Shown: piece after piece, positions 17,404 to 18,425 of the stretch
Layout of the letters: the number at the start of each line of letters is the position of its first letter
Numbering within the stretch: the first letter of the stretch is position 1
NCBI GenBank assembly: GCA_048940445.1
Contig: JBHLON010000004.1
Span: forward strand, 61,910-125,909
DNA length: 64,000 nt
Reading direction: 5' to 3'
Source: Promethearchaeota archaeon
Lineage (GTDB): Archaea; Asgardarchaeota; Lokiarchaeia; Sigyniarchaeales; SOKP01
Translations under genes and position numbers: made by a program
Notes under the pieces: model-generated
Told to the model about the DNA's origin: nothing
Database searches by the model: none
Seen by the model: only the letters and a program-made list of their open reading frames with translations

Positions 17404-17621
17404 TTCCCATAGATGTATTGCCCAATTCTACTGGAAAATACTATGCTTTCAACTTTAACTTTTAAATTTAATGGTTTATAATGAAAAAATTTAATTAGTA
17501 GCTTTTATTAAATGTATTAACTTAAAACCATATAAGCAAGGTATTTTGAGAAAAAATAGCCAAGCTTATAAAATGGTCTTAAAGGATTTTTTAACCACAA
17601 AAATCCTATACATTTCGTAAT

Positions 17622-17754
17622 GCGCTGGAAGTTAAACTGTTTTGCGTTGAAATTAGTACTGCAATTGAGATTTGTGGGAACTTTCTAACTGTGGCTTAGG
17701 CTACGGTCATGGTAAAACAGGAAAATACCTGGTCCCATCTGAACCCAGAAGCGC
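17622..17754 (+). other. Bulge-helix-bulge-like RNA processing motif formed between the 5S flanks
   Basis: GCG(17622-24)/CGC(17752-54) outer helix; CUGG(17625-28)/CCAG(17745-48) 4-bp central helix; AAG bulges at 17629-31 and 17749-51. Confidence 0.75.
17631..17750 (+). rRNA. rrf: 5S rRNA, circularly permuted gene (3' half 17631-17695, UUAG linker, 5' half 17700-17750)
   Basis: 5S signatures ACCUGGUCCCAUCUGAACCCAGAA, GUUAA, AGUAC and GGGAA; helices I, II and III all pair across the two halves; total 120 nt. Confidence 0.85.
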
Positions 17755-17882
17755 TAAAATTTTTGTGGTTAAAAGACTATTTCATAATATCTCTACTTCT
17801 AATCAAGGGAAGAATAATTTTTTTAAATGTTCTTTAATAAAATATTATATTATCGAATTATTCTTTTACTGAAAGGTGTGTT

Positions 17883-18425
17883 ATGCCGAAAAATTTAACA
17901 GTAATTTTAAAATCAATTGGAAGGAAATGGTTTTTCATTCTAGTTATCATTATCATTATAGTTGCTGTATTCGATCTTCAATTAGGTATCTGGATAACAG
18001 TAATTACATTGATCTTATATGGACTTTCATATATTCCGAATTTGTTATTTAGTAATAAACTTAAAAGATTTCTTAAGAACCAGAACACTATAGATGATAA
18101 GATGATTTCAAGACAATTAAAAAGGAAGTATGAAGAAATACAGAAAAGGTTGTTTAAATTATCCCAAAATCAAAAAAAGGAAAGTTGGTTAATAGTATTT
18201 CTAAACAAGCAATACATATTTTACAATGGAAAAATAATTGAGACATTTAAAGAACTTTATGAAAAAGGATTTGGAGAAAAAGAGATTTTAGAGGAACTTC
18301 AAAAAATTAACGTTAATACTCGTGCGGAAATTAAAGCGATAGAAGAAACTCTCATTAAAAATGATAGATTAAACGAGAGAATTGTTTCAGTTAAAGAATT
18401 TAGAGATAAAAAGAAATTTGGTTGA
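17883..18425 (+). CDS. Hypothetical membrane protein
   Basis: Two N-terminal TM segments and a basic cytoplasmic domain; GGTG SD-like element upstream. Confidence 0.7.
   Translation: MPKNLTVILKSIGRKWFFILVIIIIIVAVFDLQLGIWITVITLILYGLSYIPNLLFSNKLKRFLKNQNTIDDKMISRQLKRKYEEIQKRLFKLSQNQKKESWLIVFLNKQYIFYNGKIIETFKELYEKGFGEKEILEELQKINVNTRAEIKAIEETLIKNDRLNERIVSVKEFRDKKKFG

What the first reader, a model, noticed from the sequence alone, without database searches (positions are those of the whole stretch)
17631..17750. Circularly permuted 5S rRNA gene: 3' half precedes 5' half
Seen in sequence: 17700-17750 (GCUACGGUCAUGGUAAAACAGGAAAAUACCUGGUCCCAUCUGAACCCAGAA) matches the 5' half of a 5S rRNA. 17631-17695 (GUUAAACUGUUUUGCGUUGAAAUUAGUACUGCAAUUGAGAUUUGUGGGAACUUUCUAACUGUGGC) matches the 3' half but lies upstream of it. 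The halves pair as 5S requires. Helix I is GCUACGGU(17700-07)/ACUGUGGC(17688-95), 8 bp with G-U pairs. Helix II is GUAAAACAG(17712-20)/CUGUUUUGC(17637-45), 9 bp. Helix III is AC-CUGG/CCAG-AA-GU with the canonical AA bulge. Loop C is UCCCAUCUGAAC and loop E is AGUAC/GGAA. The normal 5' and 3' ends are joined by a cUUAGg tetraloop and the unit is 120 nt. Established knowledge: permuted tRNA genes (Thermofilum, red algae) and permuted SRP RNA genes (Thermoproteus) exist. Inference: this is a functional permuted 5S gene in an Asgard archaeon. I do not know of a described case, and linear covariance models would find only fragments of it.
Basis: partly seen in the sequence, partly recalled or inferred. 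Interest (0 to 1): 0.97.

Follow-up and report, generated by a model that had tools for sequence, protein, structure and literature searches.

The report
Back-to-front, cut-and-rejoined 5S rRNA gene
This Loki-type Asgard archaeon encodes its only detectable 5S ribosomal RNA with the back half first, between tRNA-splicing-type cut signals, so a normal 5S can form only if the transcript is cut and its ends are joined (probably into a 120-base ring), which explains why gene finders report no 5S here.

Summary
Window 17631-17695 is a 5S 3' half, 17696-17699 a UUAG cap, and 17700-17750 the 5' half. Rfam maps the two pieces to model positions 52-120 and 1-51. The native order scores only 19.7 bits. 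The re-ordered sequence gives one full-length hit (40.5 bits, E 2e-13) to a profile of canonical 5S from the sister family.

No canonical 5S was found in this genome or in 34 genomes of its family. A model of the permuted gene finds one copy in 52 of 60 family genomes. Covariation is strong: 94% of cells paired and 23 of 41 pairs with double changes.

Its predicted cuts fall at 17630|17631 and 17750|17751, and joining them restores the canonical sequence. RtcB and two EndA paralogs are encoded.

Within the same genus some species carry 30-nt BHB mini-introns. Three species have the same ring "opened" 16 nt away, in loop C.

No RNA data could be obtained, so cleavage, ligation and the ring are inferred. 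I found no published archaeal case. This scan has already flagged the same phenomenon on other Asgard DNA, including this genus.

The parts
17565..17574 (+). TATA-like box, the putative promoter of the stand-alone 5S transcript (inferred)
   Evidence: Conserved CTTATRARATGG-like element about 20 nt upstream of the outer stem in the genus. Not tested.
17590..17604 (+). Leader strand of the outer processing stem
   Evidence: Pairs with 17759-17773 (15 bp) in the minimum-free-energy fold of 17590-17775. 91.7% of cells are paired against about 40-48% in slid controls, and 5 pairs have double changes.
17609..17619 (+). Small leader hairpin (3-bp stem, 5-nt loop)
   Evidence: Present in the minimum-free-energy fold. 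Relatives have 3-5 bp stems of different sequence at the same place.
17622..17624 (+). BHB outer helix A, leader strand (GCG)
   Evidence: Pairs with 17752-17754. All 3 pairs covary and 96% of cells are paired.
17625..17628 (+). BHB central 4-bp helix, leader strand (CUGG)
   Evidence: Pairs with 17745-17748. This helix is 4/4 paired in all 24 genus loci tabulated. Its second pair is C-G 16, U-A 14, U-G 4, with no mismatch.
17629..17631 (+). 5' cut-site bulge (AAG); predicted cut 17630|17631
   Evidence: These are the 3 nt that follow the central helix. Cutting after the second bulge nucleotide is the established rule for the archaeal splicing endonuclease.
17631..17695 (+). 5S rRNA 3' half: 3' strand of helix II, helices V and IV with loop E, 3' strand of helix I
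   Evidence: RF00001 model positions 52-120.
17696..17699 (+). UUAG tetraloop joining the normal 3' and 5' ends of 5S
   Evidence: Among 36 family loci the cap is UUCG 21, UACG 4, UUAG 3, other 4-nt loops 5, and an insert of about 30 nt in 3.
17700..17750 (+). 5S rRNA 5' half: 5' strand of helix I, loop A, 5' strand of helix II, helix III, loop C
   Evidence: RF00001 model positions 1-51, 27.8 bits.
17745..17748 (+). CCAG: the 3' strand of helix III in the mature fold and the trailer-side strand of the BHB central helix in the precursor (the two pairings exclude each other)
17749..17751 (+). 3' cut-site bulge (AAG); predicted cut 17750|17751
   Evidence: A clean 3-nt bulge between the central helix and helix A.
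17752..17754 (+). BHB outer helix A, trailer strand (CGC)
17759..17773 (+). Trailer strand of the outer processing stem

Best explanation
This is the genome's functional, single-copy 5S rRNA gene, encoded circularly permuted.

Proposed pathway:
1. A stand-alone transcript of roughly 17590-17775 folds so that leader and trailer pair. This gives a 15-bp outer stem, a 3-bp helix A, and a 4-bp central helix in which the leader's CUGG takes the place of the 5' strand of helix III.
2. That fold presents two AAG cut sites in a relaxed bulge-helix-bulge motif.
3. The tRNA-splicing endonuclease cuts after A17630 and after A17750.
4. RtcB joins A17750 to G17631, which restores the canonical run CCAGAA-GUUAAAC between helix III and helix II.
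5. Once the leader is gone, CCAG re-pairs with its own helix III partner.
6. The product is a covalently closed 120-nt 5S whose helix I is capped by a tetraloop, and it most likely enters the ribosome as that ring.

Shown here: gene order, structure, covariation, the motif, its exact register, and the presence of the enzyme genes.

Inferred: transcription, cleavage, ligation, and that the ring is the final form.
For: Identity as 5S:
- The two Rfam half-hits abut at model position 51/52.
- A full-length profile hit appears only after re-ordering.
- The re-ordered sequence has the canonical minimum-free-energy fold.

Function:
- The permuted model finds exactly one copy in 52 of 60 family genomes. 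These cover 12 of 13 genera and 33 of 34 high-quality genomes.
- 94% of cells are paired against about 40% in slid controls. 23 of 41 pairs show double changes, and 0 of 500 shuffles reach the observed values.
- No canonical 5S was found in the own genome or in 0 of 34 family genomes.

Cut-and-join:
- The central helix is 4/4 paired in all 24 genus loci tabulated. Helix A covaries, for example GCG/CGC, ACG/CGU and CCGC/GCGG.
- The predicted cuts give exactly 120-121 nt in every species.
- Three gene layouts collapse to the same product. A locus with the window's break plus a loop C intron, and a locus broken in loop C instead, give products that are 118/120 identical. These two loci lie at the same, syntenic place.
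- The join needed in the window's layout is therefore written contiguously in the DNA of a sister species, and the reverse also holds.
- The 30-nt inserts in loop C and helix V have good BHB shapes and must be spliced out to restore conserved 5S sequence.

Enzymes:
- RtcB is present at 560 bits.
- Two EndA paralogs are present. One keeps the catalytic histidine region and the other lacks it. From general knowledge, that is the alpha2-beta2 type, which accepts relaxed motifs.

Ring retained:
- 33 of 36 caps are 4-nt loops, mostly UUCG or UACG, in an AT-rich genome.
- E. coli ribosomes work with a circularly permuted 5S grafted into 23S rRNA (PMC7283268).
Against:
- The motif is not a textbook BHB. 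There is no inner helix beyond the 5' cut site, or at most a 3-bp GUU/AAC.
- The BHB conformer is not the predicted minimum: -47.1 against -53.2 kcal/mol. It competes with the local helix III hairpin.
- Nothing here excludes re-opening of the ring.
- The covariation alignment A3 was fitted to the model, which biases the counts towards the structure. An independent count on in-silico products gave 10 of 38 pairs with compensatory changes.
- The genome is a 93%-complete MAG, so an unassembled second 5S cannot be excluded for this one genome.
Confidence: 0.6

Rival explanations
1. The RNA is cut and ligated as above, but the ring is only an intermediate. It is re-opened at or near the helix I cap to give a conventional linear 5S, as happens for permuted tRNA genes.
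For: Permuted tRNAs of Cyanidioschyzon mature through a circular intermediate that is then opened (cited in PMC4267664). Circular 16S and 23S forms are usually regarded as intermediates (PMC12918454).
Against: - The cap is a tight 4-nt loop, mostly of the UNCG type, with no spacer and no second cut motif.
- No enzyme is known that would open it.
- Circular SRP RNA of Thermoproteus (PMC4731332) and circular 23S rRNA (PMC12918454) stay closed.
Confidence: 0.2
2. There is no ligation. The permuted transcript is trimmed and serves as a linear permuted 5S with new ends between helix III and helix II, like the permuted mitochondrial 5S of brown algae.
For: Stramenopile mitochondrial 5S is permuted in both gene and product without ligation (PMC4267664). 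The native-order sequence folds stably on its own.
Against: - Sister species would then carry their nick inside the universally conserved loop C.
- The intron-bearing relatives need ligation in any case.
- The leader copy of the helix III strand and helix A covary, which has no purpose without BHB recognition.
- From general knowledge, known archaeal BHB-excised RNAs are ligated by RtcB.
Confidence: 0.12
3. The locus is a rearranged pseudogene or an assembly chimera, and the true 5S is unassembled.
For: The genome is a MAG of 139 contigs at 93% completeness, and rRNA genes often fail to assemble.
Against: - One intact copy with compensatory changes is present in 52 of 60 family genomes from many studies.
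- It is also present in independent JGI contigs of up to 114 kb.
- There are zero canonical hits in 34 family genomes.
Confidence: 0.02

Closest known systems
Permuted SRP RNA gene of Thermoproteus tenax, circularised by the tRNA-splicing machinery (Plagens et al. 2015, PMC4731332)
   Same: A universal structured RNA whose gene halves are swapped. The termini are processed by the splicing endonuclease and joined, and the circular product is the functional form.
   Different: - The RNA is different: 5S rRNA, a ribosome component.
- Here the arrangement covers a whole family of at least 12 genera, with shifting break points and added mini-introns.
- Nothing has been shown at RNA level here.
Circularly permuted tRNA genes (Cyanidioschyzon merolae; Soma et al. 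2007, as cited in PMC4267664)
   Same: The 3' half is encoded before the 5' half. A BHB-type motif sits at the new termini, and maturation goes through a circular RNA.
   Different: The tRNA rings are re-opened by end-processing enzymes. Here the normal ends are sealed by a tetraloop and there is no evident opening signal.
BHB excision and circularisation of archaeal pre-16S/23S rRNA, circular mature 23S (PMC12918454), and RNA-level permuted 23S of Pyrococcus (PMC7758197)
   Same: A leader-trailer processing stem carries a BHB, and cutting by EndA with ligation by RtcB yields rRNA rings.
   Different: Those genes are collinear. That literature states that 5S is not processed this way (PMC12918454). 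Only minor circular 5S species, possibly degradation products, are reported in Sulfolobus and Halobacterium (PMC3326292, PMC12558985).
Permuted mitochondrial 5S rRNA of brown algae (Rfam mtPerm-5S; Valach et al. 2014, PMC4267664)
   Same: 5S whose helix I is closed into a hairpin, with the termini elsewhere.
   Different: - It is organellar.
- Its ends lie at the alpha/gamma junction.
- It is permuted in the final product.
- It has no BHB and no ligation.
Engineered circularly permuted 5S grafted into 23S rRNA in E. coli (Huang et al. 2020, PMC7283268)
   Same: It shows that a circularly permuted 5S is compatible with active ribosomes.
   Different: It is artificial and bacterial, and it is covalently part of 23S rather than a free ring.

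Membership tests
5S rRNA (Rfam RF00001) | Three-domain fold with helices I-V, loop C and loop E sequence signatures | tested here: met
   The half-hits cover model positions 1-51 and 52-120 with conserved loop C and loop E. The re-ordered sequence folds canonically. Covariation occurs in helices I, II, III, IV and V.
5S rRNA (Rfam RF00001) | Collinear gene that reaches the gathering score (38 bits) | tested here: not met
   The native order gives 19.7 bits. The gene is permuted at model position 51/52. The re-ordered sequence could not be given to Infernal, so a sequence profile was used instead: 40.5 bits, E 2e-13.
Permuted non-coding RNA genes matured by the archaeal splicing machinery (Thermoproteus SRP RNA type) | The 3' part is encoded upstream of the 5' part and the normal ends are linked | tested here: met
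Permuted non-coding RNA genes matured by the archaeal splicing machinery (Thermoproteus SRP RNA type) | A BHB-type motif whose cut sites restore the canonical sequence on joining | tested here: met
   The cuts at 17630|17631 and 17750|17751 give the canonical junction. The register is conserved in all 24 genus loci tabulated.
Permuted non-coding RNA genes matured by the archaeal splicing machinery (Thermoproteus SRP RNA type) | Splicing endonuclease and RtcB ligase are encoded | tested here: met
Permuted non-coding RNA genes matured by the archaeal splicing machinery (Thermoproteus SRP RNA type) | Joined or circular RNA is detected and is functional | not testable with these tools
A scan of JGI contigs for the junction found only genomic loci of the loop-C-break layout.
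Canonical hBHBh' motif | Central helix of 4 bp | tested here: met
   4/4 pairs in all 24 genus loci tabulated, with covariation.
Canonical hBHBh' motif | Two 3-nt bulges on opposite strands, each flanked by helices | tested here: inconclusive
   The 3' site is a clean 3-nt bulge between helix A and the central helix. The 5' site has no inner helix, or at most a 3-bp GUU/AAC, so the motif is of the relaxed (BHL-like) kind. The BHB conformer is not the minimum-free-energy fold.
Brown-algal mitochondrial permuted 5S (mtPerm-5S) | Termini at the alpha/gamma junction, with a linear permuted final product | tested here: not met
   The break here lies between helix III and helix II (model position 51/52), and it is flanked by a BHB.

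The most novel reading that the evidence does not exclude
In this whole Loki-type family the ribosome's 5S rRNA is a covalently closed ring made by the tRNA-splicing enzymes. The gene is also repeatedly re-cut at RNA level during evolution: within one genus the ring is opened 16 nt away, in loop C, at the same chromosomal locus, and 30-nt mini-introns come and go. This would be consistent with processed circular 5S RNA being copied back into the gene through cDNA.
Probability: 0.15. Interest if true: 0.9.

Novelty: new variant of a known kind. Interest (0 to 1): 0.8.

Why it matters
5S rRNA is universal and is assumed to be a simple collinear gene giving a linear RNA.

- The literature I read states that archaeal 5S, unlike 16S and 23S, is not matured by excision and circularisation (PMC12918454).
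- Authors of closed Heimdallarchaeum genomes reported that no 5S gene could be predicted (PMC8813620).
- A permuted, BHB-flanked 5S gene answers that "missing gene" problem. In a phylum sample only 47 of 151 genomes have a canonical 5S.
- It makes 5S an obligate substrate of the tRNA-splicing machinery in the closest archaeal relatives of eukaryotes.
- It predicts a circular 5S in ribosomes, which is directly testable in cultures, enrichments or metatranscriptomes.
- Annotation pipelines and MAG-quality standards that ask for a 5S gene will systematically fail on these genomes.

Tried and rejected
- **RNA evidence.** Transcription, cleavage and ligation are untested.
- **Mis-spaced pattern.** My first genome contigs pattern had one N too many and found nothing. 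I corrected it.
- **Junction scan.** A scan of JGI metagenome contigs for the ligated junction found 9 hits. All are genomic loci of the loop-C-break layout, where that junction is DNA-encoded, and none is RNA-derived.
- **Alignment problem.** MAFFT misplaced the loop C intron in alignment A1, so I used that alignment only for the outer stem.
- **Helix II register.** Rfam's register for helix II is off by one for this sequence.
- **Other canonical 5S in the genus.** The single hit, G014:C263, has bacterial-type sequence in a genome with 7% contamination. I rejected it as contamination.
- **Continuous flank helix.** A continuous 5-bp GCGCU/AGCGC helix appears in the window's minimum-free-energy fold. 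I rejected it as the conserved feature because relatives cannot form its last two pairs, whereas the bulged form is conserved.
- **Helix I cap insert.** The insert of about 30 nt in the cap in one genus has only an irregular BHB candidate, so I left it open whether it is an intron or an expansion.
- **Unrun script.** I redid it from files.

Full report
**Observation**

- 17631-17695 carries the 3' strand of helix II, the helix V / loop E / helix IV arm, and the 3' strand of helix I.
- 17696-17699 is a UUAG loop.
- 17700-17750 carries the 5' strand of helix I, loop A, the 5' strand of helix II, helix III and loop C.

The whole window has no Rfam match above threshold and no tRNA. Around the locus RF00001 reaches only 19.7 bits against a gathering score of 38. 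It does so by aligning the 5' half and deleting 36 model positions.

Searched separately, 17699-17750 matches model positions 1-51 (27.8 bits) and 17631-17697 matches positions 52-120 (14.7 bits). The halves therefore abut at model position 51/52.

**Re-ordering test**

Infernal cannot be fed a re-ordered sequence here. I built a sequence profile from nine canonical 5S genes of the sister family and ran nhmmer.
- The native locus gives two fragments in swapped order (18.9 and 2.5 bits).
- The re-ordered sequence gives one full-length hit of 40.5 bits, E 2e-13.
- The same holds for all 24 genus loci tested.
- The re-ordered RNA folds by minimum free energy into the standard three-domain 5S.

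**Is it the real 5S?**

The own genome is 3.64 Mb in 139 contigs, 93.4% complete. Its only RF00001 candidate at E up to 10 is this locus.

The organism is a Promethearchaeota (Loki-type Asgard) MAG, judging from the titles of 29 matching records.
- In the genus, 21 of 24 genomes hold a homologous locus at 76-99% identity.
- The single canonical hit in the genus is bacterial in sequence and lies in a contaminated bin.
- The sister family has canonical 5S at 54-68 bits.
- In a phylum sample of genomes at least 85% complete, 47 of 151 have a canonical 5S, concentrated in a few families. The window's family has 0 of 34.

I built a covariance model of the permuted gene, R1. It finds exactly one full-length copy in 52 of 60 other family genomes. 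These cover 12 of 13 genera and 33 of 34 high-quality genomes.

Covariation on the resulting alignment:
- 94.0% of cells are paired, against 36-43% when partners are slid.
- 23 of 41 pairs have changes on both sides.
- 0 of 500 shuffles reach the observed values.
- That alignment is fitted to the model. An independent count on in-silico products within the genus gave 10 of 38 compensatory pairs, six of them in helices I and II, which span the swapped halves.

The locus sits alone in a 480-nt gap between two + strand ORFs.

Leader and trailer pair as follows:
- A 15-bp outer stem, 17590-17604 with 17759-17773. It is conserved, with double changes.
- Inside it, the leader reads GCG-CUGG-[AAG] and the trailer CCAG-[AAG]-CGC.
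- CUGG/CCAG is a 4-bp central helix and GCG/CGC is the outer helix.
- The two AAG triplets lie on opposite strands, which is the polarity of the archaeal bulge-helix-bulge motif.

Applying the established rule (a cut after the second bulge nucleotide) gives cuts at 17630|17631 and 17750|17751. Joining them gives the canonical CCAGAA-GUUAAAC.

Across the genus:
- The central helix is 4/4 paired everywhere.
- The outer helix covaries (GCG/CGC, ACG/CGU, CCGC/GCGG).
- The excised unit is always 120-121 nt once inserts are removed.

The motif is relaxed, because no inner helix follows the 5' site. The BHB conformer lies 6 kcal/mol above the minimum free energy, since CCAG can also pair with its own helix III partner. 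This implies a fold switch.

The genome encodes RtcB and two EndA paralogs. One retains the catalytic histidine region and the other does not. From general knowledge, that is the heterotetrameric type known to accept relaxed motifs.

**Comparative evidence that the ends are joined**

Relatives show variant layouts of the same gene.
- Eight genus loci and several other genera carry a 30-nt insert in loop C. Two loci carry one in helix V.
- Each insert has a 4-bp central helix, 3-nt bulges and a 7-of-8-bp inner helix. Removing it restores conserved 5S sequence exactly.
- Three genus species and nine JGI contigs have a different break point, inside loop C, with their own BHB: leader CCGG-[AAC], trailer CCGG-[UCU].
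- That layout equals the window's layout with a 16-nt end segment moved from the 3' end to the 5' end, at the same syntenic locus.
- Its predicted product is 118/120 identical to that of its nearest relative, which has the window's break point plus a loop C intron.

The joint that must be made in RNA in one species is therefore DNA-encoded in its sister, and vice versa. This is hard to reconcile with unligated products.

A genome of a third family has yet another break point, after the 5' strand of helix II.

**Ring or re-opened?**

The cap is a 4-nt loop in 33 of 36 family loci: UUCG 21 and UACG 4 among them. I see no second cut motif there.

Precedents for closed or permuted functional forms:
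- Circular SRP RNA stays closed (PMC4731332).
- Circular 23S rRNA is found in ribosomes (PMC12918454).
- E. coli ribosomes function with a circularly permuted 5S grafted into 23S rRNA (PMC7283268).

I therefore favour a closed 120-nt ring as the final form, but this is inference.

**Literature**

Seven full-text searches found no permuted or BHB-processed archaeal 5S gene and no 5S intron.

Known relatives of the idea:
- Permuted mitochondrial 5S of brown algae, which has no ligation (PMC4267664).
- Minor circular 5S species in Sulfolobus and Halobacterium, thought to be intermediates or degradation products (PMC3326292, PMC12558985).
- RNA-level permuted 23S in Pyrococcus (PMC7758197).

Authors of closed Heimdallarchaeum genomes could not predict a 5S gene (PMC8813620).

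**Earlier notes of this scan**

The scan has flagged the same phenomenon many times on other Asgard DNA, including this genus and the loop C mini-intron. Some notes claim environmental RNA holding the rejoined form in other lineages. I did not test those RNA claims. My own tests agree with the DNA-level claims.

A word search of the index did not return a note on a second break point within one genus.

**Verdict**

This is a genuine, family-wide, permuted 5S gene with a BHB-type cut-and-join signal. It is mechanistically a new variant of the permuted-RNA / BHB-circularisation theme. It is of high interest, and proof at RNA level is still outstanding.

Noticed in passing
L051, L052, L064 and L093-L101 (same genus): A second permutation point lies inside loop C, with its own BHB. 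It equals the window's layout with a 16-nt end segment moved from the 3' end to the 5' end, at the same syntenic locus. The predicted product is 118/120 identical to that of the nearest relative with the window's break point.
   Followed up: partly
L040, L044, L045, L047, L049, L050, L066, L085 (loop C); L035, L036 (helix V): These permuted 5S genes carry 30-nt inserts with good BHB shape. Removing an insert restores conserved 5S sequence. One family genome (G188:C4:391533-391733) has a 201-nt match, which may mean two inserts; I did not examine it.
   Followed up: partly
L113, L115, L116 (another genus of the family): The helix I cap carries an insert of about 30 nt instead of a tetraloop. 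Only an irregular BHB candidate exists (AAUU central helix, 31-nt excision leaving a UUGA loop). It could be an intron or an expansion segment.
   Followed up: partly
L012 (G026, a different family of the same order): A third break point. The gene starts in loop B before helix III and ends after the 5' strand of helix II, and the flanks can form a CCGA/UCGG central helix with AAA bulges.
   Followed up: no
window 17526-17579: A block upstream of the 5S leader is conserved across the genus. It holds two TATA-like elements (CATATAAG and CTTATAAAAT). This is more than a minimal promoter would need, and its function is unknown.
   Followed up: no
window 17813-17845: A conserved T7 tract is followed by a TATA-like TTTAATAAAATA downstream of the trailer. 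It is probably the terminator of the 5S transcript and/or the promoter of the ORF at 17883-18425.
   Followed up: no
L011 (G014:C263:6954-7076): The only canonical 5S hit in the genus has bacterial-type sequence (GUGAAAC motif) and lies in a bin with 7% contamination. It is probably a contaminant contig.
   Followed up: partly
L004 (G032:C1, sister family): Three tandem canonical 5S genes lie about 375 nt apart in a closed genome of the sister family. Tandem arrays of this kind are a possible starting point for permutation.
   Followed up: no
L091:1168-1770 and L092:1426-2040 (own genome): There are two splicing-endonuclease paralogs, 36% identical over the C-terminal domain. The second lacks the catalytic histidine region, which suggests a catalytic plus structural heteromer.
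   Followed up: partly
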